DNA of 47,968 nucleotides from a virus, in IMG/VR virus record IMGVR_UViG_3300034069_001016, positions 1 through 47,968 of that record. One strand, given 5' to 3'. Numbering within the stretch: position 1 is the stretch's first letter; the number at the start of each line of letters is the position of its first letter. Both the position numbers and the translations under genes were made by a program. This document shows positions 1-47,968 of this stretch, piece after piece. A model generated the notes under the pieces. The model did no database searches and had not been told where the DNA came from. It saw only the letters and a list, made by a program, of their open reading frames with translations.

Positions 1-141
1 CCCTCCACCCATTCCTTGTCGTCGCCGAGCCGCGCGAACATCTGATTCTCGCGCATCTTCTTGAACTCGGGCTCGAGCTTGGCGCGCCGATCCTTGATCT
101 TCTTCTGCCACTGCTCGACCAGCTCTTTCCTGCCAGGGTCG
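1..141. repeat. Terminal direct repeat, copy 1. It is identical to 47828-47968 and marks a circular or terminally redundant molecule.
   Basis: Read directly: ccctccacccattccttgtc...tttcctgccagggtcg is present at both window ends. The match runs to the last base of the window. Confidence 0.95.
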
Positions 142-11699: not shown

Positions 11700-12065
11700 A
11701 TGCCCTACATCCCCTATTGCCACGCGCCAGTCATCTACACGGTGGCCACGCCCCAGGGCGAAATGCCTATCGGCTCGAGCCCGATCCGGCCGCGCAACGT
11801 CCCGCCCATGCTCGAGTACCTGCAGAGCCCGCGGGGCCTGCTGGTACTCAATCTCGCCCGCGTCGCCTATCGGCAGGCTCGCAGCCTTGGCGTGCCGCAT
11901 GTCGAAGCTTTGGAAGCTGCCGACGCCGAGCTCGCAGCCGTTTCGGGCGATCCCAACGACGGCCTGGCCGAATGGGTGGCCGCCGGTAACGACGTCCTCC
12001 GCCCCATCACCTCTCACCGCGTACCCGCAAACTATGATCAACCGACTAGCCGCAGTGCGGCGTAA
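11700..12065 (+). CDS. Hypothetical protein (121 aa)
   Basis: AAGGAG lies 8 nt upstream of ATG 11700. Confidence 0.65.
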   Translation: MPYIPYCHAPVIYTVATPQGEMPIGSSPIRPRNVPPMLEYLQSPRGLLVLNLARVAYRQARSLGVPHVEALEAADAELAAVSGDPNDGLAEWVAAGNDVLRPITSHRVPANYDQPTSRSAA

Positions 12066-12078
12066 GGAGTTCACGACC

Positions 12079-12765
12079 ATGTCGAAGAAGGCCGAGAAAA
12101 TCACCGCGTACAAGGGTTTCAACAAGGATCTGCAGTGCCGCGACTTCCAGTACGAAGTTGGCAAGACCTACGCCCACAAGGGTGACGTCGTGGCCTGCAG
12201 CAGTGGCTTTCACGCCTGCGAGCATCCGCTGAACGTGTTCAGTTACTACCCGCCAGCCGGCTCGCGCTTCGCCGAGGTGACGCTTTCCGGTACCACGAAT
12301 TGCGATGGCAGCGACACGAAAATCGCTGCCGCCAAAATCACCATCGATGTTGAATTGTCGATCGGCGACTTGGTGAAACGCGCTTGGGATTACGTCTGGT
12401 CACGCGCTACGCCCGAGGAGGGTTCATCGGCGACGGGCACGCGAGGCGCCGCATCGGCGACGGGCACGCGAGGCGCCGCATCGGCGACGGGCTGGCAAGG
12501 CGCCGCATCGGCGACGGGCGAGCAAGGCGCCGCATCGGCGACGGGCTGGCAAGGCGCCGCATCGGCGACGGGCACGCGAGGCGCCGCCATGGCCTGCGGC
12601 TATGAGGGCCGCGCGATGGGTGCCGAAGGCAACGCCCTGTTCCTGGTCGAGCGCGACGACAATTACAACATCCTCGCTGCCTGGGCCGGCATCGTCGGCA
12701 AAGACGGCATCAAGCCGAACACCTGGTACATCCTGCGTGACGGCAAGCCGGAGGAGATCACATGA
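12079..12765 (+). CDS. DUF7666-like protein with six SATGxxGAA nonapeptide repeats
   Basis: AAGGAG precedes ATG 12079. N-terminus ITAYKGFNKDLQCRDFQYEVGKTY...GFHACEHPLNVFSYY, a central (S-A-T-G-x-x-G-A-A)x6 block, and C-terminus FLVERDDNYNILAAWAGIVGKDGIKPNTWY. This pattern is a phage family recalled from memory. Confidence 0.8.
   Translation: MSKKAEKITAYKGFNKDLQCRDFQYEVGKTYAHKGDVVACSSGFHACEHPLNVFSYYPPAGSRFAEVTLSGTTNCDGSDTKIAAAKITIDVELSIGDLVKRAWDYVWSRATPEEGSSATGTRGAASATGTRGAASATGWQGAASATGEQGAASATGWQGAASATGTRGAAMACGYEGRAMGAEGNALFLVERDDNYNILAAWAGIVGKDGIKPNTWYILRDGKPEEIT
12427..12588 (+). repeat. Six in-frame tandem 27-bp repeats (TCGGCGACGGGCnnnnnAGGCGCCGCA)
   Basis: Read directly. Units start at 12427, 12454, 12481, 12508, 12535 and 12562. 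Only the 5-6 central bases vary between units. Confidence 0.9.
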
Positions 12766-17218: not shown

Positions 17219-17295
17219 TTGCCTTCTCCAGCAAACGCCGCTATCTCTCCGCTCACGATGCTCCGACCGCGACCCGCACTCTGAACCCTGATGCC

Positions 17296-17372
17296 CTGGG
17301 CATAGCTCAGCTTGGTAGAGTGCCGCACTTGGAATGCGGAGGCCGCAGGTTCGAATCCTGCTGCCCAGACCA
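17296..17372 (+). tRNA. tRNA-Pro(UGG): tRNA-Pro (anticodon UGG) with encoded CCA
   Basis: Hand-folded cloverleaf. Acceptor stem CTGGGCA/TGCCCAG, D stem GCTC/GAGT, anticodon stem CCGCA/TGCGG with loop CTTGGAA, and T arm GCAGG-TTCGAAT-CCTGC. It carries C1-G72 and A73, the bacterial tRNA-Pro identity set. Confidence 0.85.
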
Positions 17373-17378
17373 TCAGCC

Positions 17379-17630
17379 TCAAAGACATACGCCGACGATC
17401 CTGCAACTGGCTGCTCCGAGCAGGAGAAGACCGACGATTAGCAGCGTCATGCCAAGCCAAAGGCTGAAGGCCACCGGCGCCGCCTCATCGAGACTCAGTC
17501 CGGGCAGTCCTTCGGTGATGGTGGTTTTCAGGACATAGAAGGCGCCTGCCAACAGCGGGACGCTAACCCAAGCGGCCATGATCATCGCGAATAGATCAGC
17601 CCGGCCCCAGAATTCGGCATTGTAGATCAT
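17379..17630 (-). CDS. Membrane protein (83 aa, 2-3 TM segments)
   Basis: AGGAGG lies 5 nt upstream of ATG 17630. Hydrophobic stretches include AMIMAAWVSVPLLAGAFYV and LWLGMTLLIVGLLLLGAA. Confidence 0.65.
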   Translation of the reverse strand: MIYNAEFWGRADLFAMIMAAWVSVPLLAGAFYVLKTTITEGLPGLSLDEAAPVAFSLWLGMTLLIVGLLLLGAASCRIVGVCL

Positions 17631-17639
17631 GACGTCCTC

Positions 17640-18875
17640 CTACCCCTTCACGCACAGGACTTGCTTCAGCGTGTGCACGACCTCGACGAGATCGGACTGC
17701 GCGGCCATGACAGCGTCGATGTCCTTGTAGGCGCCAGGCGTCTCGTCGATCACATCGGCGTCCTTGCGGCATTCGACGCCAGCGGTGGCCACAGCGTGAT
17801 CGCTCAGGGTGAACCTGCGCTTCGCTTCGGCGCGCGACATGGCCCGGCCGGCGCCATGGCTGCAGCTGCAGAAACTCTCCGGCTCGCCCTTCCCGCGCAC
17901 GATGTACGATCGCGCGCCCATGCTGCCGGGAATGATGCCGAGTTCGTCGGCGCGGGCGCGAACGGCGCCTTTCCGGGTGACGATCACGTTCTCGCCGAAG
18001 TGATGCTCCCACGACACGTAGTTGTGGTGGCAGTTCACGGCTTCGACCCAGCCGCCGACGGCCTTGCTCGGCACGGCGCGTGACAAGAGCATCATGACAG
18101 CGTCCAGCATCAGGCGGCGGTTCAGCATGGCGTACTGCTGCGCCCACTCGACGGCGAACCGATAGTCGTCGAAAAGCTCACTTCCCTGCGGCAAGTAGGC
18201 CAAGTCGGCATCCGGCAAATTGATGAACCATCGGCGCATGTCTTCCTTGGCGCGCTCGATGAAATACGTGCCAACACGGTTTCCGATGCCGCGACTGCCA
18301 GAATGGACCATCACCCAAACGTGCTGATTCTCATCGATGCAGATTTCGACGAAATGGTTGCCGGTTCCGAGCGTGCCGAGATGGCTGGCAGCGCGGTCCA
18401 GCGTCCATTGCTTCTGCAACTTGGGGTGTTTCGCCAAAATCCGTGACAGGTCGAGTGCACACTCGTTAAAAGCGCCGCGAATCGTCTCCGGCACGTCTTG
18501 CCAGGCGCCGCGATCGCCCGGTCCGCCGTTGTTGGTACGGCCGTGGGGAATGGTGCGCTCGATCTCGCTGCGCAGCGGCGCAAGGTTGTCGGGCAGATCG
18601 GCGGCCTTCAGTGTCGTTTGCTGAGCGATCATCCCGCAGCCGATGTCCACACCGACGGCAGCCGGAACGATGGCGCCTTTCGTCGGGATCACCGACCCTA
18701 CCGTGGCCCCCATTCCCCAATGAACATCGGGCATTACCGCGACATGGCGATGGACGAACGGCAGCGTCGCGACGTTCCGCAACTGCTGCATTGCTGCGTC
18801 TTCGACCGGCACGCCGCGCGTCCACATCTTGATCGGAACGCGCTGGCTGGCGTCGACTTCATAACCCCTTGTCAT
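17640..18875 (-). CDS. rtcB: RtcB-family RNA 3'-phosphate ligase
   Basis: GAGGAGG precedes ATG 18875. Canonical motifs PDVHWGMGATVGSV, DIGCGM, GTGNHFVEI, HSGSRGIGN, NCHHNY and HGAGR. Confidence 0.9.
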   Translation of the reverse strand: MTRGYEVDASQRVPIKMWTRGVPVEDAAMQQLRNVATLPFVHRHVAVMPDVHWGMGATVGSVIPTKGAIVPAAVGVDIGCGMIAQQTTLKAADLPDNLAPLRSEIERTIPHGRTNNGGPGDRGAWQDVPETIRGAFNECALDLSRILAKHPKLQKQWTLDRAASHLGTLGTGNHFVEICIDENQHVWVMVHSGSRGIGNRVGTYFIERAKEDMRRWFINLPDADLAYLPQGSELFDDYRFAVEWAQQYAMLNRRLMLDAVMMLLSRAVPSKAVGGWVEAVNCHHNYVSWEHHFGENVIVTRKGAVRARADELGIIPGSMGARSYIVRGKGEPESFCSCSHGAGRAMSRAEAKRRFTLSDHAVATAGVECRKDADVIDETPGAYKDIDAVMAAQSDLVEVVHTLKQVLCVKG

Positions 18876-19164
18876 AATGCCTCCTCGCAATAGTTGCAGT
18901 GGGTCAGCAGCGATAAACGGGTGTTCACACGCTGGGATTGTGTCGGCCTTGTCCACAGGACGGACGCCGAAAATTCGCCTAAATCTCACCCGTCGCAGGC
19001 CCATCCGGGCCGGTGGCAGGTCAACCACCGCAACTCATGGCTGAACGTGTCACCAATGCACTACGAGGTACGCGCAATATAGTAATTGCACTTACCCCTG
19101 CCGACCTGTATCAGGCCGCGTCTGACGAAAACCGTTACACCCGACACGGTTTTCAGTCTAGCAA

Positions 19165-19184
19165 AATTTGCAGAAATGCAAATT
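19165..19184. promoter_or_regulatory. Operator-like palindrome next to a TTGACA -35-like hexamer in the divergent early control region
   Basis: AATTTGCA-GAAA-TGCAAATT has perfect 8-bp arms. TTGACA follows at 19189-19194, 35 nt upstream of ATG 19229. Confidence 0.4.
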
Positions 19185-19228
19185 CCGTTTGACATGCGCA
19201 GTTTCTGCTGCGCGTAATGGAGGCGTCA

Positions 19229-19456
19229 ATGTTGAGCACGGAGCAACTGTTAAAACGAATAGAACGCTTTTTGTCACGCACCGGCATGAAGGCAACGACT
19301 TTTGGTCGAGAGGCAATGGGTGACACCGCTTTTGTGTCACGCCTTCGGATGGGCACCCGTGAGGCCCGGTCGGCAACAGTGAGGAAAGCGCTGGACTACA
19401 TGGAGGCGTACGAGTGCCAGCCCAAGCCGAAAACAAAGCTGCGACCGAATCGGTAA
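19229..19456 (+). CDS. Small HTH regulator (first rightward early gene)
   Basis: GGAGG lies 5 nt upstream of ATG 19229. GMKATTFGREAMGDTAFVSRLRMG looks like an HTH. Confidence 0.6.
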   Translation: MLSTEQLLKRIERFLSRTGMKATTFGREAMGDTAFVSRLRMGTREARSATVRKALDYMEAYECQPKPKTKLRPNR

Positions 19457-19974
19457 ATCCGAAAGATTTGGCGGGTCGCGCCAAGCCACAGCTCCACCTC
19501 GTTCCCCTGCCTGCCCTCCTCCCCATCTCCCGGGTGATGGAGCTCGGTGCAAAGAAATACGGTCCGTTCAACTGGCGTGATACGCCGATCGGCCACACCC
19601 CCTACATTTCAGCCATGTTCCGCCACCTCATCGCTTTTGCCAGCGGCGAGGATCTCGATCCCGAGAGCGGCCAGCCCCATCTCGCCCACATCGCTTCCGG
19701 CGCCATGATCCTGCTCGACGCTCGCGAGGTCGGTTCGGCGAAGGACGATCGGCCTGGCCTGTTGGCGCGCGAGGCTGCCAACGAGAACTCCGGCATCCCT
19801 GCCGAGGATTGGCTCCGACGCTTCGACGTGCTGACACCCAGCCAGCTCCACGTCTATTGGACGGAGCTGCGCCGCCTCACCGCCACGGGCGGGGGTGTCA
19901 TCGGTCCGCACCAGGATCAGGCGCTGCTGTTCGCCGAGATGTCTCGGCCGGCTCTCGTAGGCACGCATCAGTGA
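19414..19974 (+). CDS. DUF5664-like protein (family recalled as 'dATP/dGTP diphosphohydrolase N-terminal domain')
   Basis: KPQLHLVPLPALLPISRVMELGAKKYGPFNWRD...RHLIAFASGEDLDPESGQPHLAHIASGAMILL matches my recollection of that family. The start (GTG 19414) is uncertain. Confidence 0.55.
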   Translation: MPAQAENKAATESVNPKDLAGRAKPQLHLVPLPALLPISRVMELGAKKYGPFNWRDTPIGHTPYISAMFRHLIAFASGEDLDPESGQPHLAHIASGAMILLDAREVGSAKDDRPGLLAREAANENSGIPAEDWLRRFDVLTPSQLHVYWTELRRLTATGGGVIGPHQDQALLFAEMSRPALVGTHQ

Positions 19975-25816: not shown

Positions 25817-26104
25817 ATGACCACTTCCGTTCTTGTCCGCCATGTCCACAACGGCCATGACTTCAGTGAGCAGGTCACTTGCAGCGATCCCGCGCTGAAC
25901 GCTGTCCTGTTCGACTTCAATCCGTCGAGCCATGCCGATGTCACCACGATCAAGGCGCTCCATGCGGCCTTGATTCAGAAGATGCGAGACATCCAGGCTC
26001 GAGAGGGCGCCACGGGAGCGCAGAAGAGAGCAGCCGCCATCGCAATAACGGAACTCGAAGGCACGCAGATGCGCGCCGTCAAAGCTCTGTTCGCCAAGGA
26101 GTAA
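25817..26104 (+). CDS. Hypothetical protein (95 aa)
   Basis: Compact ORF 5 nt after the SSB stop. Helical, ending in ELEGTQMRAVKALFA. Confidence 0.6.
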   Translation: MTTSVLVRHVHNGHDFSEQVTCSDPALNAVLFDFNPSSHADVTTIKALHAALIQKMRDIQAREGATGAQKRAAAIAITELEGTQMRAVKALFAKE

Positions 26105-26111
26105 TCACAAC

Positions 26112-26480
26112 ATGTCACATCTTCAGCACCCCCACGTCTACGCCGGCGGCGTCAACGCTGGCGCCGCAATGCTCGACGAGCGCGATCGGAATGCCGCCAA
26201 GACGATCGGCCCGGCGCCTGAGCCGAGTCTCCTCGGCGCCGTGGTGAATGAGGTCGCGAGCCTCACGAACCTCGCCTACATCCTTCGGGATCGCAGCGAA
26301 GGCCAGCGGCGGCGCCTCTTAGGCGACATTCCGCCGTCTCCGGAGGAGGGAGTTGGCGCCCTGACCGCTGCGAATCGAACCTCGGTGTCGTTCGTCGACA
26401 TCGCCGAGGCTCTGCAGCGCCTTCGCGCCGTGATGAGCGACATCGACGCTCATACGGCCGCTCTCGTGAAGATCGGCTGA
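26112..26480 (+). CDS. Hypothetical protein (122 aa)
   Basis: ORF tightly packed between neighbours. Its stop overlaps the gapR-like start. Confidence 0.55.
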   Translation: MSHLQHPHVYAGGVNAGAAMLDERDRNAAKTIGPAPEPSLLGAVVNEVASLTNLAYILRDRSEGQRRRLLGDIPPSPEEGVGALTAANRTSVSFVDIAEALQRLRAVMSDIDAHTAALVKIG

Positions 26481-26758
26481 TGGCGGGTATCGGCCACAAC
26501 AGCGGTGCGAAGGTGCAGGCCGGTCCGATCAGTGCAGACCGGTTGAAATCCTTCGTCGATCGTATCGAGAAGCTCGAGGAAGAGCGCTCCGCTATCGGCG
26601 GCGACATCAAGGACATCTACAGCGAAGCGAAGGGCGTCGGCTACGACGTCAAGACCATTCGCAAGATCGTCCAGCTCCGCAAGAAGGATGCCGCCGATCG
26701 CGCCGAGGAACAGACCTTGCTCGAGGTCTACCTCAACGCCTTGGGCATGCTGTCCTGA
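26480..26758 (+). CDS. gapR: GapR-like (DUF2312) nucleoid-associated DNA-binding protein
   Basis: LKSFVDRIEKLEEERSAIGGDIKDIYSEAKGVGYDVKTIRKIVQLRKKD...LLEVYLNALGM is the DUF2312 signature. Confidence 0.85.
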   Translation: MAGIGHNSGAKVQAGPISADRLKSFVDRIEKLEEERSAIGGDIKDIYSEAKGVGYDVKTIRKIVQLRKKDAADRAEEQTLLEVYLNALGMLS

Positions 26759-27038: not shown

Positions 27039-27232
27039 TGCCAGCTCCGGCGATCACCGGCTGCGCCTCAGCGGCGAACTTCGCTATGGCGTGGCTGACG
27101 CTCGACGCCAAGGGCGAAGACCTGGCGGCGCGATTCGGCGTCACGCGCGCGTCGGCCACCCGCATCGCCAACAAGCTCGGATTGCCGCCACGGCGGCGCG
27201 GCCCGAAGCCGCAACACAGGAAAAGAGTATGA
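27035..27232 (+). CDS. Small HTH protein (65 aa)
   Basis: GEDLAARFGVTRASATRIANKLGL looks like an HTH, followed by a basic tail. The gene is coupled at both ends. Confidence 0.55.
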   Translation: MMPAPAITGCASAANFAMAWLTLDAKGEDLAARFGVTRASATRIANKLGLPPRRRGPKPQHRKRV

Positions 27233-27747
27233 AGCCTTCCGTGTATCTCGCCGGGCCGATCGCCCACCTCTCTGGCTCGGAATCGCGCACCTGGCGCAAA
27301 GCCGTCAGCGAGCAGCTGCGGCCGATCAAGTGCTATTCGCCGATGCGTGACACGCATATGCTGGGTGACGACGAAATCGTGACGGCCGTCGGGTATTCGC
27401 TACCCATCGTGTCGAACCGGGGCATCCTGGCGCGAGATCGGTTCGACGTACAACGCTGCGACGTTATTTTCGTCAATCTGCTCGGTGCGCAGCGAATTTC
27501 AATCGGCACCTGCATCGAGATCGGATGGGGCCACCTTCTGCAGAAGCCCGTGGTGGCCGTCATGGAGCCGGGCAACATTCACGAGCACGCCATGGTGCTT
27601 GAGGCCATCGACTACCGCGTCAACACCCTCGACCATGCGTGCGACATCGTTCGCAGCCTTCTCGACGTCCAGACCGATCCGCCGGCTATCCCCGTCGAGA
27701 CGGTGCCGCGGCGCGCCAGCTCAATCGGCAAGGTCGAGCTCCTCTGA
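27229..27747 (+). CDS. Nucleoside 2-deoxyribosyltransferase-like protein
   Basis: ATGA overlap at 27229. VYLAGPI at the N-terminus and SIGTCIEIGWGHLLQKPVV (a DxGTxxExG-like motif). Confidence 0.65.
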   Translation: MKPSVYLAGPIAHLSGSESRTWRKAVSEQLRPIKCYSPMRDTHMLGDDEIVTAVGYSLPIVSNRGILARDRFDVQRCDVIFVNLLGAQRISIGTCIEIGWGHLLQKPVVAVMEPGNIHEHAMVLEAIDYRVNTLDHACDIVRSLLDVQTDPPAIPVETVPRRASSIGKVELL

Positions 27748-31241: not shown

Positions 31242-32042
31242 TCACTTTCCTGCCCCCTCGAGACGCTTCCCAAGCGCACCAACGCAGTGGTGGCCGTAGA
31301 CCTTCTCGACCGTGTCGACGGTGTCGCCCAGCAGCTGCGCCACGTCCCATATGGCCACGCCAGCCTGCAGCAGGTGCGACGCTCGCGTGTGCCGCAGCGT
31401 GTGGGGCGTGACGTCGTCGCCCAGTCCAGCCCGCTTTACCGCCCGGCCGAACGGCCCGAGGAGGCAGCCGGTGTGCTCCAGGACGTAAGGTGAGTTCGTC
31501 ATGGCAAAGGCGAGCTCCAGGGCCGGCCGAAGCTCTGAGTGGATCGGGACCGTCGGCCGGCGCTTCTTCGTCTTCACCTCGCCAGGCTTGGCCAGGTGGA
31601 TGACACCGACCTGAAAGTCGACCTGGTAGGCCCATTCCAGGGTCTCCACGGCGCGCCGACGGGAGGCTGTGTAATAGGCCGTCTCGATGAACAGGGCGAC
31701 GCGCGCGTCACCGCTAGCGGCTTTGCGCAGGCGCGCCAGCTCGTCGTGCGTCAGCCACCGCTCTCGCGGTTGGGACGGCTCCGGCAGGGTGATCTTGTAG
31801 ACGTTGAAGTCGAAGCGCTCGCGGCGCACGCCGTGCTTCAGCGCTGACACCAGCACGCCGAGCTCGCGGCGCACCGTCGGGTCAGACGCTGGCCGGCGCG
31901 CGTCGAGGTATTCGTCGCACGCCGTGGCGCCGAGGTCGACGATCGGGGTTTCCCCGAGTTCGCGGCGAAGGTGGTCGATCGCAATGTCTGTGCGACGGCG
32001 ATCGACCACGCGCGGTTCCGTGCGCCCATTTCGGACGATCAC
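31242..32042 (-). CDS. int: Tyrosine recombinase / phage integrase
   Basis: ETAYYTASRRRAV (catalytic R), HTLRHTRASHLL (HxxR) and VEKVYGHH (catalytic Y). The N-terminal boundary is uncertain (see findings). Confidence 0.9.
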   Translation of the reverse strand: MIVRNGRTEPRVVDRRRTDIAIDHLRRELGETPIVDLGATACDEYLDARRPASDPTVRRELGVLVSALKHGVRRERFDFNVYKITLPEPSQPRERWLTHDELARLRKAASGDARVALFIETAYYTASRRRAVETLEWAYQVDFQVGVIHLAKPGEVKTKKRRPTVPIHSELRPALELAFAMTNSPYVLEHTGCLLGPFGRAVKRAGLGDDVTPHTLRHTRASHLLQAGVAIWDVAQLLGDTVDTVEKVYGHHCVGALGKRLEGAGK

Positions 32043-32092: not shown

Positions 32093-32425
32093 CTATTCGA
32101 GCATCAGCGCGAGCAACTTGGCGTCGCGCTCTCTGCCCTCTTTGTCCTTGAGCTTGATGTTGCCGAGTTCGATCATCGTCGGTGTTCCCGTCGATGGTCG
32201 TTCCGTTGACGGCGCGGTCGGTGTCGGCGCTGTCCCGAAGTGCTGAGATTTGAACGCCTCCAACTGCGCGCGGGTATACCGGGAGTGACCTCCCTTCCCG
32301 CTGCCAACCGTGCGCTTCGCGGGCTTCAGAACCCCACGAGCGGCGTATTGGCGCAACGTCGCGGGCTGCACCCCAAGTATCCTCGCAGCTTCACGCGGCG
32401 TCAGAAGTTCCTCTTGCTCTGCCAT
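32093..32425 (-). CDS. xis: Excisionase-type (MerR-like) HTH protein
   Basis: LLTPREAARILGVQPATLRQYAARG is the excisionase-family HTH. The gene is directly upstream of int on the same strand. Confidence 0.7.
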   Translation of the reverse strand: MAEQEELLTPREAARILGVQPATLRQYAARGVLKPAKRTVGSGKGGHSRYTRAQLEAFKSQHFGTAPTPTAPSTERPSTGTPTMIELGNIKLKDKEGRERDAKLLALMLE

Positions 32426-45924: not shown

Positions 45925-47968
45925 CTATGCGGCCACCGGTCCCCGTTGCTGCTCGATGCCCTGTTCGCCGGGCGCAGGGTGCGCCGCCTGGCGCTGCCCT
46001 TCTCCGCCCTGGCGCGGCGCACCAGGCTTGCCCTTGTCGTTGGCGGGCGCCGGCGGCGCGGCCATCCGCTGCATGATCGAATTCAGCGTGACGGCCGACG
46101 GCGCACCCTCGGCCTTCATCTGATCGACGGGCAGGTTCAGCAGGTCGCCGTAGCGGTTGGCGACCGGCGTCATGTTCACTCCCGGCATCTGCAGCAGGTA
46201 CGGCGTCGCGCGCTCCAGGTTGGCCAGATCGGCCGCTACATTCGGCCGGCCGCTCGAGCCGGCGCGCACCCGGAGCGTGATCTTCTTCACCGCCTCGGCC
46301 CGATTGTGCTCCGGCCACACGGCCTTGGCGCCCGCGATCTCGCGCACCGTGTCGCCGCTCATGTACATCAGGTTCAGTTCGTTGATGCCCGAGGCCAGCT
46401 CGCTCAGAAGCTCGTCCACCTCGTCGACATTGGACGCCATATCGGCCGACCGGCTGGCTTCGGCGATTGACGCCTCGGTGGCCGTGGTGTCGCTTCCGGC
46501 ATTGCCGAAATTGGCGTCCTGAGACCCGACGGAGCGCATGATGTCGTCCATCTGCGGCCGAGTGTCGTACAGGGCGGCGTCGGGTTTCACCAACGGGAGG
46601 GGCTGCAGGAGGTCTGTGACCTTCTGACCGATCAGGAGCTGCTTGAGCTTGATGATCGCGTGCGCCGGGTAGTCCAGAATGGACGTCGTCTCGCGCTTGT
46701 CCATGGACGAACCCGCGGCGACATAGCGCGGCAGCGATGCGCGACGATGGTCCTTGAGATCCTGGCGCGATCGGTTCAGTTCCTTCTGCGCGGGCCTCAT
46801 CAGCTCGACGTCGGACGGCGCGTACAGCGTCTCGTCGCTCTCCACACCGTTGAAGACCAGGGTGTAGACCGTGAAGAAGCGCTCAAGCGACACCTCGGGC
46901 GGTCCGGGCTCGCGCAGAAAGTCGCAGTAGCCGTCGGCGAGGTAGAATTCCTGGCCAAGCTCCTTGTCCTGGACGCGCCAGAGGCAGACCTGCCCTTTCG
47001 TGCCGTCCTGCTTGGTGCCCGGCTGCTTCTTGAAGTACGGCGTGAACTGGTCGCCGATGTCCTTGTTGAACAGTGCCCGGATGTCCTCGGGAGTCTTCAT
47101 GAACTGGCGAACGACCCATCGGGAGCCGATGAATCCGTCGAGAACGCGCGTATCCTCGTCGCTCCAAACCTCATCGGACGTCGGAAAGTCGAGTACCGGC
47201 CCTTCCCGAACGATGATCTCCGGCTGCTTCTGCAACGTATCGATCAGCGTGCGCAGCCGCTCGGCCTCGGCCGTGAATTCCTCTACCTTGCCCTCGGTCG
47301 CGTCCTCCAGCAGTGCCTCGACGCGCTTCATCTGCGACGTGCTGCTCTCGAGCTGCGCCGTCACAGCCGGATTCGGCGCCATGACGCGCTCGTATGACAG
47401 ATCGACGTAGCCGATCTTGCAGACCGCGGTGCGGCGAATCAGCTGCTTGAAGCTCTTTTTGAAGTTCGGGCTCTGATCCTGGAGGAAATAGTTGCCCAGG
47501 ATCTCAGCGGTATCGGCGATGCGCTGCAAAAGAAGCTGCTCGCGCTTCACCTGCTCCACTTCCTCGACGATCGCCGCCGCTTCGGGATTGATCGACTGCG
47601 CCGCCATCTCGAAGCCGGCCATATCGCCGGCCATCTCCGCAGCCTGCATGGCCATCCTGCCTTGGCCGACCTGCTCGATGGCCGACATGAGCGTCTGCGG
47701 GTCGCCGTCCCACACCGAAAACAGCACTTGGCGACGCACCTCGGCCGAAACTTGCGGGTTCCGGGCATAGAGCCGCGCCACCTTCTGGTTGATGGTGCGC
47801 ACCGTGACAGGAACGACGTAGTTTCCGCCCTCCACCCATTCCTTGTCGTCGCCGAGCCGCGCGAACATCTGATTCTCGCGCATCTTCTTGAACTCGGGCT
47901 CGAGCTTGGCGCGCCGATCCTTGATCTTCTTCTGCCACTGCTCGACCAGCTCTTTCCTGCCAGGGTCG
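45925..47968 (-). CDS. Portal protein (main body). The reading frame runs off the window edge and resumes at 141/142-239.
   Basis: More than 650 aa immediately downstream of terL in the circular map. The frame stays open to the last base of the window. Confidence 0.8.
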   Translation of the reverse strand, partial: DPGRKELVEQWQKKIKDRRAKLEPEFKKMRENQMFARLGDDKEWVEGGNYVVPVTVRTINQKVARLYARNPQVSAEVRRQVLFSVWDGDPQTLMSAIEQVGQGRMAMQAAEMAGDMAGFEMAAQSINPEAAAIVEEVEQVKREQLLLQRIADTAEILGNYFLQDQSPNFKKSFKQLIRRTAVCKIGYVDLSYERVMAPNPAVTAQLESSTSQMKRVEALLEDATEGKVEEFTAEAERLRTLIDTLQKQPEIIVREGPVLDFPTSDEVWSDEDTRVLDGFIGSRWVVRQFMKTPEDIRALFNKDIGDQFTPYFKKQPGTKQDGTKGQVCLWRVQDKELGQEFYLADGYCDFLREPGPPEVSLERFFTVYTLVFNGVESDETLYAPSDVELMRPAQKELNRSRQDLKDHRRASLPRYVAAGSSMDKRETTSILDYPAHAIIKLKQLLIGQKVTDLLQPLPLVKPDAALYDTRPQMDDIMRSVGSQDANFGNAGSDTTATEASIAEASRSADMASNVDEVDELLSELASGINELNLMYMSGDTVREIAGAKAVWPEHNRAEAVKKITLRVRAGSSGRPNVAADLANLERATPYLLQMPGVNMTPVANRYGDLLNLPVDQMKAEGAPSAVTLNSIMQRMAAPPAPANDKGKPGAPRQGGEGQRQAAHPAPGEQGIEQQRGPVAA
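47828..47968. repeat. Terminal direct repeat, copy 2 (identical to 1-141)
   Basis: Direct comparison of the two window ends. Confidence 0.95.

What the first reader, a model, noticed from the sequence alone, without database searches (positions are those of the whole stretch)
17296..18875. RtcB RNA ligase sits next to a phage-borne tRNA-Pro: candidate tRNA repair or replacement counter-defence
A full-length RtcB with all metal- and GMP-binding motifs visible is the first gene of the leftward early operon. It is followed by an 83-aa membrane protein and then a complete tRNA-Pro(UGG) gene on the opposite strand.

RtcB seals 2',3'-cyclic-phosphate/5'-OH breaks, the products of anticodon nucleases. 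A phage that carries both a ligase and a spare tRNA could repair or bypass host tRNA-cleaving abortive-infection systems.

No archease, RtcA or Pnkp-like partner is visible, and the role of the coupled membrane protein is unknown.
Basis: partly seen in the sequence, partly recalled or inferred. Interest (0 to 1): 0.65.

Follow-up and report, generated by a model that had tools for sequence, protein, structure and literature searches.

The report
Phage RtcB ligase beside variant tRNA-Pro
A temperate phage carries an intact RNA-repair ligase (RtcB) next to its own proline tRNA; this pairing recurs in many unrelated viral contigs, and the tRNA lacks the G37 base found in nearly all sampled cellular proline tRNAs, which fits an untested role in repairing and replacing host tRNAs cut by bacterial defences.

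Summary
Window 17640-18875 (-) encodes a full-length RtcB with every catalytic residue. An 83-aa two-helix membrane ORF follows at 17379-17630 (-). A canonical tRNA-Pro(UGG) lies at 17296-17372 (+). No archease, RtcA or Pnkp was found.

The window is a complete ~47.8 kb temperate phage genome, probably of an alphaproteobacterium.

Phage RtcB is also common, present in 698 of 50,697 phage records.

Three results go beyond it:
- In 72 non-redundant viral RtcB loci, 20 have a tRNA within 110 nt of rtcB, against about 1 expected by random placement.
- tRNA-Pro(UGG) makes up 12 of 28 adjacent tRNAs but 1 of 69 non-adjacent ones (p=5e-7), across scattered RtcB lineages.
- The window's tRNA has A37 instead of G37, the TrmD/m1G37 site. 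A37 occurs in 1 of 122 sampled cellular tRNA-Pro(UGG), 18 of 120 viral ones, and 10 of 12 next to rtcB.

The one close relative keeps the order rtcB-orf83-tRNA, with the tRNA 98.7% identical.

The link is statistical, not universal, and no target nuclease is known. Verdict: a real feature and a new variant of a known kind, of moderate interest.

The parts
17640..18875 (-). rtcB: RNA 3'-phosphate/2',3'-cyclic-phosphate to 5'-OH ligase, 411 aa, with a complete active site (D77, C80, N173, H174, H191, H284, N285, H340)
   Evidence: Pfam PF01139 at 438 bits, full length. phrog_1075. Alignment to P. horikoshii RtcB structures. Motif positions. Closest homologues are 76-80% identical, both chromosomal alphaproteobacterial genes and phage-like contigs.
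17379..17630 (-). orf83: small protein with two hydrophobic helices. It is lineage-specific and is not a conserved RtcB partner.
   Evidence: Called by an independent gene caller. Hydropathy. One homologue only, 67% aa identity, same length, no indels, substitutions 17/16/32 by codon position. Absent from 80 RtcB loci. No Pfam, PHROG or NCBIfam hit.
17296..17372 (+). tRNA-Pro(UGG) with an encoded CCA end, C1-G72, A73, G35, G36 and G15/C48. Its anticodon loop is CUUGGAA, so it has A37 instead of the G37 typical of cellular tRNA-Pro, plus C32 and a U2-A71 pair.
   Evidence: ARAGORN. Rfam at 71.3 bits. Sequence read directly. 76/77 identical in relative L436, against 74-94% for the flanks. A37 class statistics.
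17219..17295 (+). Intergenic region upstream of the tRNA. It holds a candidate tRNA promoter, TTGCCT (17219-17224), 17 nt, TATCTC (17242-17247). This is an inference only.
   Evidence: Read from the sequence. The region is 94.8% identical in L436, more conserved than the flanking ORFs. The consensus scan did not flag it.
18876..19228 (.). Divergent intergenic region between rtcB (leftward) and a 75-aa ORF (rightward), presumed to hold the promoters of both gene blocks.
   Evidence: Gene layout. One sigma-70-like site on the - strand at 19104-19076, no more than chance would give.

Best explanation
The RtcB ligase and the phage tRNA-Pro(UGG) are two arms of one counter-measure against loss of proline-decoding tRNA during infection.

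Inferred chain: on infection, a host or prophage ribonuclease cuts tRNAs in or near the anticodon loop, leaving 2',3'-cyclic-phosphate and 5'-OH ends. RtcB reseals these ends directly, using GTP and Mn2+, with no healing enzymes. The phage tRNA-Pro(UGG) supplies a replacement decoder; by analogy with E. coli proM it could read all four CCN codons. Its altered anticodon loop (A37 and C32 instead of G37 and U32) makes it a poorer nuclease substrate, independent of TrmD m1G37 methylation, or both.

Shown here: both genes are intact; they are linked far more often than chance across viral contigs; and the tRNA belongs to a virus-enriched A37 class.

Inferred only: that a nuclease exists, that tRNA-Pro is its target, that RtcB acts on tRNA, and that A37 confers resistance.
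For: (1) RtcB is intact and full length.

(2) The tRNA is canonical, carries the E. coli-type ProRS identity elements, and is 98.7% conserved in a relative whose flanking ORFs are 74-83% identical.

(3) Of 72 non-redundant viral RtcB loci, 20 have a tRNA within 110 nt of rtcB. Random placement gives 1.14 +/- 1.02, with a maximum of 5 in 2000 trials. Pro(UGG) is 12 of 28 adjacent tRNAs against 1 of 69 non-adjacent ones, Fisher p=4.6e-7.

(4) These loci are scattered over the RtcB tree and over GC 0.38-0.67. The tRNA lies sometimes upstream and sometimes downstream, and the tRNA sequences are diverse.

(5) Starting from the tRNA instead, 5 of 120 A37 tRNA-Pro loci contain an RtcB, always adjacent. 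Three of these RtcBs are only 28-32% identical to the window's. None of 102 G37 loci has one.

(6) A37 is found in 1 of 122 cellular, 18 of 120 viral and 10 of 12 rtcB-adjacent tRNA-Pro(UGG). The single cellular A37 case (L231) sits in a tRNA array 4 kb from an RtcB.

(7) 112 neighbouring ORFs in 14 such loci share no other recurrent family, so the pair itself is the conserved unit.

(8) CCA, the cognate codon, is the rarest proline codon in the phage at 8%, which argues against simple codon supplementation.

(9) Precedents: T4 Pnkp/Rnl1 against PrrC, and phage tRNAs with altered anticodon loops (PMC10264068). VapC-mt11 cuts Pro, Leu, Arg and Gln tRNAs 3' of nucleotide 37, needs G36-G37, and yields 5'-OH ends (PMC6459853). 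The other tRNAs seen beside rtcB are Arg(CCG), Gln(UUG), Leu(UAG), Lys and Glu.

(10) The same phage carries other candidate counter-defence genes: an Acb2/Tad1-like protein and a C5 methyltransferase.
Against: - In the window the tRNA is on the opposite strand from rtcB, with orf83 between them. They are not one transcript, unlike almost all other loci.
- 72% of RtcB loci have no adjacent tRNA. The RtcBs closest to the window's (L001-L011, and chromosomal alphaproteobacterial genes at 78-79%) have none.
- Isolated phages pf16, Ea35-70 and RP12 have rtcB without a neighbouring tRNA.
- Only about 4% of A37 tRNA-Pro loci have an RtcB, so the tRNA clearly works without it.
- A second RtcB subfamily shows adjacency in only 5 of 80 loci, and its three Pro cases belong to one clade.
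- No defence nuclease specific for tRNA-Pro(UGG) turned up in the literature searched.
- In vitro, G37A in a tRNA-Pro only shifts the VapC-mt11 cut by one nucleotide, so A37 need not protect.
- The host is unknown, so the phage and host tRNAs could not be compared directly.
Confidence: 0.45

Rival explanations
1. The two genes have separate jobs and only share a neighbourhood. RtcB repairs any RNA (rRNA, mRNA or tRNA) cut by metal-independent RNases such as HEPN toxins, Cas13 or Csm6, MazF or colicin-like toxins. The tRNA simply boosts proline decoding. They sit together because phage accessory genes for translation and RNA metabolism tend to collect around tRNA genes.
For: - The genes are convergent and orf83 lies between them.
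- Most RtcB loci lack an adjacent tRNA, and most A37 tRNA-Pro loci lack RtcB.
- rtcB inside general tRNA regions or arrays has been described without isotype specificity (PMC5648845; PMC8421152). L014 and L213 show rtcB inside or beside mixed arrays.
- In isolates, rtcB sits next to other anti-defence genes rather than tRNAs.
Against: - General clustering does not explain why one isotype and one loop variant dominate: Pro(UGG) is 12 of 28 adjacent against 1 of 69 non-adjacent tRNAs, and A37 is 10 of 12 against 18 of 120.
- It does not explain why seven loci have tRNA-Pro(UGG) as the only tRNA within 6 kb, directly abutting rtcB.
- CCA is the phage's rarest proline codon.
Confidence: 0.3
2. The A37 tRNA-Pro is a device for independence from modification rather than for nuclease evasion. 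With A37 it needs no TrmD m1G37 to stay in frame or to be charged. It therefore works when phage tRNA is made faster than the host can methylate it, or when S-adenosylmethionine or TrmD is limiting during infection. RtcB is an unrelated RNA-repair gene, or deals with a different injury.
For: - G37 is near-universal in cellular tRNA-Pro(UGG), 121 of 122, but is replaced in 15% of viral ones.
- 15 of 120 A37 loci carry both an A37 and a G37 tRNA-Pro(UGG) in one array, which suggests two functionally distinct species.
- The roles of m1G37 in frame maintenance and in proline charging are established (abstracts of PMC8384417 and PMC8643618).
Against: - It gives no reason for the enrichment of A37 copies next to rtcB.
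- The A37 class also differs at the 2:71 pair and at position 32, which TrmD-independence alone does not require.
- It is not exclusive of the best explanation.
Confidence: 0.17
3. The tRNA gene is tied to integration. Either it is, or overlaps, the phage attachment site (attP), or it marks where a cassette was inserted. RtcB and orf83 would then be cargo genes placed next to it.
For: - The phage is temperate, with an integrase at 31242-32042 and an excisionase at 32093-32425.
- In L208 an RtcB (80% identical) is followed by tRNA-Arg(CCG) and then xis-int.
- orf83 and rtcB lie immediately 3' of the tRNA.
Against: - The tRNA is about 14 kb from the int-xis module.
- The tRNA 3' end is not repeated anywhere in the window.
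- The tRNA is complete and is at most 83% identical to any sampled cellular tRNA-Pro.
- An integrase is near the pair in only 2 of 14 Pro-adjacent loci.
Confidence: 0.04

Closest known systems
Phage T4 Pnkp + Rnl1 repair of tRNA-Lys cut by the PrrC anticodon nuclease
   Same: A phage-encoded RNA ligase is presumed to reseal host tRNA broken in the anticodon loop, reversing an abortive-infection response.
   Different: T4 uses a heal-and-seal pair: a kinase-phosphatase plus an ATP-dependent 5'-P/3'-OH ligase. Here a single GTP-dependent RtcB would join 3'-P or cyclic-P ends to 5'-OH ends directly. The target here is unknown and the linked tRNA is Pro, not Lys. T4 does not pair the ligase with a replacement tRNA.
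Phage tRNAs that bypass tRNA-targeting defences: T5 tRNA-Lys against PARIS, T5 tRNA-Tyr against retron Eco7, and mycobacteriophage tRNAs with altered anticodon loops (van den Berg 2023)
   Same: A phage-borne tRNA differs from the cellular consensus within the anticodon loop, here A37 and C32.
   Different: No nuclease has been matched to it. The change is at position 37, the TrmD site. The tRNA is physically coupled to a ligase in many contigs. PARIS AriB is a Toprim nuclease; from general knowledge, not tested here, such metal-dependent nucleases leave ends RtcB cannot join.
RtcB + tRNA co-occurrence in subcluster K1 mycobacteriophages (Pope 2011), and rtcB in the tRNA region of Sphingobium phage Lacusarx
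   Same: The same gene pair and the same speculative reading, protection against host tRNA cleavage.
   Different: In K1 phages the tRNA is tRNA-Trp, near the left genome end and not next to rtcB. No isotype-specific or loop-variant-specific link was reported.
Cellular Rtc systems (RtcR-RtcA-RtcB of E. coli and Salmonella; RtcB2-PrfH ribosome repair), and rtcB co-regulated with long tRNA arrays in cyanobacteria
   Same: The same enzyme family. In cyanobacteria rtcB neighbours tRNA arrays and is induced with them under translational stress (PMC8421152).
   Different: No RtcR, RtcA or PrfH is present here. The protein scores below the NCBIfam cut-offs for both the E. coli-type family (170 against 407 bits) and the PrfH-linked family (135 against 272 bits). 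Its closest cellular relatives are stand-alone alphaproteobacterial genes.
VapC-mt11 of M. tuberculosis, as a model for the missing nuclease
   Same: In vitro it cuts Pro, Leu, Arg and Gln tRNAs just 3' of nucleotide 37. It needs G36-G37, and its products were detected in 5'-OH libraries. The tRNAs found beside rtcB (Pro, Arg(CCG), Gln, Leu(UAG)) overlap this set.
   Different: It comes from a different phylum and is a toxin-antitoxin toxin, not a proven phage defence. In vivo it cuts only Gln(CUG) and Leu(CAG). G37A in tRNA-Pro shifts the cut rather than abolishing it.

Membership tests
RtcB RNA ligase (Pfam PF01139) | Full-length match to the family model above the curated threshold | tested here: met
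   438.1 bits against a gathering score of 27, model positions 1-426 of 426. phrog_1075 at E=3.7e-146.
RtcB RNA ligase (Pfam PF01139) | Metal-binding Asp, Cys and His residues, and the histidine that is guanylylated (P. horikoshii D95, C98, N202, H203, H234, H329, H404) | tested here: met
   Aligned equivalents are D77, C80, N173, H174, H191, H284 and H340.
RtcB RNA ligase (Pfam PF01139) | GTP- and Mn2+-dependent joining of 3'-P or 2',3'-cyclic-P ends to 5'-OH RNA ends | not testable with these tools
   Needs a biochemical assay.
Bacterial-type tRNA-Pro | Cloverleaf tRNA with an NGG anticodon | tested here: met
   ARAGORN tRNA-Pro(tgg). Rfam RF00005 at 71.3 bits.
Bacterial-type tRNA-Pro | ProRS identity elements known from E. 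coli: G72, A73, G35, G36 and G15/C48 | tested here: met
   Read directly from the sequence. The list of elements comes from established knowledge of E. coli ProRS.
Bacterial-type tRNA-Pro | G37, the m1G37 site of TrmD, 3' of the anticodon | tested here: not met
   The loop is CUUGGAA, so position 37 is A. A sample of cellular tRNA-Pro(UGG) has G37 in 121 of 122 cases.
Phage repair-and-replace counter-defence against anticodon nucleases | A phage-encoded ligase able to seal the nuclease's products | tested here: inconclusive
   An intact RtcB is present. Its substrate in vivo is unknown.
Phage repair-and-replace counter-defence against anticodon nucleases | A phage tRNA that differs from the host tRNA at the nuclease's recognition or cleavage site | tested here: inconclusive
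   It differs from the cellular consensus at positions 32, 37 and 2:71. The host and the nuclease are unknown.
Phage repair-and-replace counter-defence against anticodon nucleases | A cognate host nuclease, and rescue of infection by the phage genes | not testable with these tools
   Needs genetics. No tRNA-Pro(UGG)-specific defence was found in the literature searched.
Rtc operon (RtcR-RtcA-RtcB) or RtcB2-PrfH | Linked RtcA cyclase and RtcR activator, or a linked PrfH release-factor homologue | tested here: not met
   None appears among the neighbouring or other scanned ORFs. NCBIfam PRK09588 and TIGR03073 both score below cut-off.
tRNA-borne attP site | Lies next to the integrase/excisionase module and shares a core with a host tRNA | tested here: not met
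   int is at 31242-32042 and xis at 32093-32425, about 14 kb away. There is no repeat of the tRNA end. A shared core with the true host tRNA could not be tested.

The most novel reading that the evidence does not exclude
rtcB plus an A37-type tRNA-Pro(UGG) is a conserved two-gene viral module that answers a widespread, still undescribed bacterial defence. That defence would disable proline decoding, or more broadly the G36-G37 tRNAs (Pro, Leu-CUN, Arg-CCG). It could act by cutting them at the m1G37 position, or by exploiting their dependence on TrmD. The virus-specific tRNA-Pro class (A37, C32, U2-A71) would then be a resistant decoder, and RtcB the matching repair enzyme.
Probability: 0.25. 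Interest if true: 0.75.

Novelty: new variant of a known kind. Interest (0 to 1): 0.5.

Why it matters
Phage tRNAs and RNA ligases are increasingly seen as answers to tRNA-targeting immunity, but RtcB has never been tied to a particular tRNA.

A reproducible genomic link between rtcB and one unusual tRNA-Pro gives a concrete hypothesis that can be tested. It points to proline decoding and the m1G37 position as a battleground, and it predicts a defence nuclease that has not yet been found.

It also flags a virus-enriched tRNA-Pro class that should not need TrmD. TrmD is an essential bacterial enzyme and a drug target, so this class could be a useful tool for studying m1G37 function.

If the link proves to be only neighbourhood clustering, the locus is an ordinary accessory region of a temperate phage.

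Tried and rejected
- **Close phage relatives in GenBank:** megablast of 13-22 kb found only short methyltransferase matches.
- **Backbone relatives through the prim-pol/helicase in IMG/VR:** six distant loci at 47% identity or less, none with RtcB or tRNA-Pro nearby. Backbone synteny could therefore not be assessed. Only the 1.3-kb contig L436 served as a close relative.
- **orf83 as a conserved RtcB partner:** rejected.
- **Y-RNA or other tRNA-like RNA instead of a true tRNA:** rejected, because Rfam gives only RF00005 at a high score.
- **A recurrent third partner (archease, RtcA, Pnkp or integrase) near rtcB-tRNA-Pro pairs:** none found.
- **attP at the tRNA:** rejected as unlikely.
- **Codon supplementation:** not supported, since CCA is 8% of proline codons. 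Host codon usage is unknown.
- **Replication in a second RtcB subfamily:** weak. 5 of 80 loci have an adjacent tRNA, and the three Pro cases form one clade.
- **MFE folding of the tRNA alone:** uninformative (z=-0.78), as is usual for tRNAs.
- **BLAST of the tRNA against phage records:** mostly generic tRNA matches.
- **Scan design limit:** the scans stop at 120 rows, so only ratios within a sample could be estimated, not totals.
Full report
**1. What is there**

The window is a complete phage genome. Bases 1-141 repeat exactly at 47828-47968, and the source contig is 47.7 kb (Logan SRR23972076).

It encodes:
- a terminase and a major head protein;
- a T7-like replication set: prim-pol/helicase, exonuclease, gp2.5-type SSB and DNA polymerase A;
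- a tyrosine integrase with an excisionase next to it.

It is therefore a temperate phage. The host is probably an alphaproteobacterium. The evidence is a GapR-type DNA-binding protein and the closest RtcB homologues, which lie in alphaproteobacterial and Reyranella assemblies. This host assignment is an inference.

**2. The observation**

ARAGORN and Rfam find one tRNA in the window: tRNA-Pro(UGG) at 17296-17372 on the + strand, scoring 71.3 bits.

On the - strand, the ORF from 18875 to 17640 is a full-length RtcB. Pfam gives 438 bits over the whole model, and it matches phrog_1075. Aligned to the P. horikoshii enzyme, all metal ligands and the guanylylated histidine are conserved: D77, C80, N173, H174, H191, H284, N285 and H340.

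Between the two lies orf83 (17379-17630, -). It has two hydrophobic helices. An independent gene caller also predicts it. Its only homologue has third-position-biased substitutions and no indels.

rtcB is the first gene after a 353-nt divergent intergenic region. No archease, RtcA, RtcR, PrfH or Pnkp was found in the ORFs scanned.

**3. Is the adjacency meaningful?**

*Close relative.* Only one exists in the collections: a 1.3-kb contig (L436) with 85% nucleotide identity. It has the same order: rtcB, orf83, tRNA-Pro on the opposite strand, orf100. Identity by segment is 93.8% for the rtcB 3' end, 74.2% for orf83, 98.7% for the tRNA (76/77), 94.8% for the spacer upstream of the tRNA, and 82.8% for orf100. 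The tRNA is thus under strong constraint and is co-inherited with rtcB.

*Distant relatives.* I fetched 80 IMG/VR loci whose RtcB is 61-73% identical to the window's and scanned them for tRNAs.
- After collapsing near-identical loci to 72, 20 have a tRNA within 110 nt of rtcB.
- Random placement of the gene in the same loci gives 1.14 +/- 1.02, with a maximum of 5 in 2000 trials.
- Pro(UGG) accounts for 12 of the 28 adjacent tRNAs but only 1 of the 69 non-adjacent ones (Fisher p=4.6e-7).
- These loci are scattered over the RtcB tree and over GC contents from 0.38 to 0.67.
- The tRNA lies upstream in some and downstream in others, and the tRNA sequences are diverse.
- This is not one recently spread cassette.
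- The neighbours of 14 such pairs (112 ORFs) share no other recurrent family. An integrase appears in only two loci.

*Other tRNAs beside rtcB.* These are Arg(CCG), Arg(UCG), Gln(UUG), Leu(UAG), Lys(UUU or CUU) and Glu(CUC). A phage-like contig with an 80%-identical RtcB has tRNA-Arg(CCG) 6 nt downstream.

**4. The tRNA is unusual**

Its anticodon loop is CUUGGAA, so position 37 is A. From established knowledge, bacterial tRNA-Pro carries G37, which TrmD methylates to m1G37. That modification is needed for frame maintenance and efficient charging.

I tested how common A37 is with a pattern that accepts either base. Each scan stopped at 120 rows.

| Sample | G37 | A37 |
|---|---|---|
| Bacterial and archaeal genomes | 121 | 1 |
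| Viral contigs | 102 | 18 |
| tRNA-Pro(UGG) directly beside rtcB | 2 | 10 |

The viral sample differs from the genome sample at p=2e-5. The rtcB-adjacent set differs from the viral background at p=2e-6.

- The single cellular A37 case (L231) lies in an 11-tRNA array with an RtcB gene 4 kb away.
- Sampling from the tRNA side, 5 of 120 A37 loci contain an RtcB, always adjacent. Three of those RtcBs are only 28-32% identical to the window's. None of 102 G37 loci contains one (p=0.06).
- The A37 tRNAs form a distinct class. Position 2 is U or A in 79%, where 97% of cellular ones have G. Position 32 is C in 45%, against 3%.
- Fifteen of the 120 A37 loci carry both an A37 and a G37 tRNA-Pro(UGG) in one array.
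- I found no paper describing this class or its link to RtcB in the held library. That is not proof of novelty.

**5. Limits**

- The link is a minority pattern. 72% of RtcB loci have no adjacent tRNA.
- The RtcBs closest to the window's include stand-alone chromosomal genes of alphaproteobacteria with no tRNA nearby.
- The isolated phages pf16, Ea35-70 and RP12 have rtcB next to other genes, in two cases anti-defence genes.
- About 96% of A37 tRNA-Pro loci show no RtcB in the fetched stretch.
- A second RtcB subfamily shows adjacency in only 5 of 80 loci, and its three Pro cases belong to one clade.
- In the window the tRNA is convergent with rtcB, not co-directional as elsewhere.
That would inflate the G37 count among 'viral' tRNAs.

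**6. Mechanism**

The best reading, at 0.45 confidence, is a repair-and-replace counter-measure. RtcB reseals tRNAs cut by a nuclease that leaves cyclic-phosphate and 5'-OH ends. The phage tRNA-Pro(UGG) acts as a replacement decoder whose altered loop escapes the nuclease, the need for TrmD, or both.

- From established knowledge of E. coli proM, this isoacceptor can read all four CCN codons, so a single gene could restore the whole proline box.
- Simple codon supplementation is not supported. CCA is only 8% of the phage's proline codons, and CCG is 58%.
- A plausible model for the missing nuclease is VapC-mt11. In vitro it cuts Pro, Leu, Arg and Gln tRNAs 3' of nucleotide 37, requires G36-G37, and yields 5'-OH ends. 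However, a G37A change only shifts its cut by one nucleotide (PMC6459853).

The gene content, the linkage statistics and the A37 class are shown. Everything about a nuclease, its target and resistance to it is inferred.

**7. Rivals**

- **Shared neighbourhood, separate roles (0.30).** This fits the convergent orientation and the many unlinked cases. It does not explain the specificity for one isotype and one loop variant.
- **A37 as independence from TrmD only (0.17).** This fits the universal cellular G37 and the paired A37/G37 arrays. It does not explain the enrichment near rtcB, and it is compatible with the main reading.
- **attP or insertion site (0.04).** The int-xis module is about 14 kb away, the tRNA end is not repeated, and the tRNA is at most 83% identical to any sampled cellular tRNA-Pro.

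**8. Comparison with what is known**

Phage RtcB is common: 698 of 50,697 phage records encode a homologue. It is routinely annotated as a tRNA repair ligase (PMC7824862).

The idea that RtcB plus a phage tRNA protects against host tRNA cleavage dates from 2011 (PMC3203893). rtcB near tRNA regions has been noted in phage Lacusarx and in cyanobacterial tRNA arrays (PMC5648845 and PMC8421152). Phage tRNAs with altered anticodon loops as an escape from nucleases were proposed in 2023 (PMC10264068).

The locus is therefore a member of a known, though experimentally unproven, kind. What appears new is the preferential coupling of rtcB to tRNA-Pro(UGG), and the A37 class of that tRNA.

**9. Verdict**

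I rate it a new variant of a known kind, with interest 0.5.

Noticed in passing
window 17296-17372; loci L081-L200 and L334-L435: Viral contigs hold a distinct class of tRNA-Pro(UGG) with A37 instead of G37, often with C32 and a U/A2 pair. It makes up 15% of sampled viral tRNA-Pro(UGG) against 0.8% of cellular ones. 15 of 120 such loci carry both an A37 and a G37 copy in the same tRNA array.
   Followed up: partly
L231 1-8000 (Pyrinomonadaceae MAG contig JBGSWW010000032.1): The only A37 tRNA-Pro(UGG) in the bacterial genome sample sits in an 11-tRNA array (Arg, Gln, Pro, Leu, Cys, His, Asp, Phe, Lys, Met, Asn). A large ORF and then an RtcB homologue (50% identity) follow it. Whether this is a prophage or a mobile tRNA array was not determined.
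   Followed up: partly
L035, L038, L058/L061, L112, L150, L208: Small tRNA sets beside rtcB are drawn mostly from tRNAs whose anticodon ends in G36 and which read CNN codons: Pro(UGG/CGG), Arg(CCG), Gln(UUG) and Leu(UAG). This overlaps the in vitro target set of VapC-mt11. A second group of loci (L017, L026, L031, L032) pairs rtcB with Lys and Glu tRNAs instead.
   Followed up: partly
window 1-141 and 47828-47968: There is an exact 141-nt terminal direct repeat. The contig is a complete genome of about 47.8 kb, either circularly permuted or terminally redundant.
   Followed up: no
window 25817-26104 (+): A 95-aa protein carries a precomputed Pfam hit to Acb2_Tad1_hairpin, the family of anti-CBASS and anti-Thoeris nucleotide sponges. 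This suggests the phage has other counter-defence genes. My PHROG and NCBIfam scans gave nothing for it.
   Followed up: partly
window 19414-19974 (+): A protein carries the N-terminal domain of dATP/dGTP diphosphohydrolase (PF18909, MazZ-like), divergent from rtcB across the intergenic region. No PurZ was seen among the genes scanned, so a link to 2-aminoadenine genomes is not indicated. The question was not pursued.
   Followed up: no
window 12398-12613 (inside ORF 11887-12765, +): Six or more tandem copies of a 27-nt unit lie inside a protein that matches phrog_4433 and collagen-like tail-fibre families.
   Followed up: no
window 26480-26758 and 27229-27747 (+): A GapR-type DNA-binding protein (an alphaproteobacterial nucleoid protein family) and a nucleoside 2-deoxyribosyltransferase lie just upstream of DNA polymerase A. 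The first hints at the host; the second hints at nucleotide salvage or modification.
   Followed up: no
L210-L212 and the P0015 contig: The closest cellular RtcBs (78-79% identity) are stand-alone chromosomal genes of alphaproteobacteria. They are flanked by acyl-CoA and AMP-binding enzymes and purE/purK, with no RtcA, RtcR or tRNA. This suggests fairly recent exchange between the host lineage and phages.
   Followed up: partly
L437 (Pseudomonas phage pf16) and L439 (Ralstonia phage RP12): In isolated phages, rtcB lies next to an annotated anti-restriction gene (pf16), or next to ribose-phosphate pyrophosphokinase plus nicotinamide phosphoribosyltransferase (RP12). In both cases these are neighbourhoods linked to counter-defence.
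   Followed up: no
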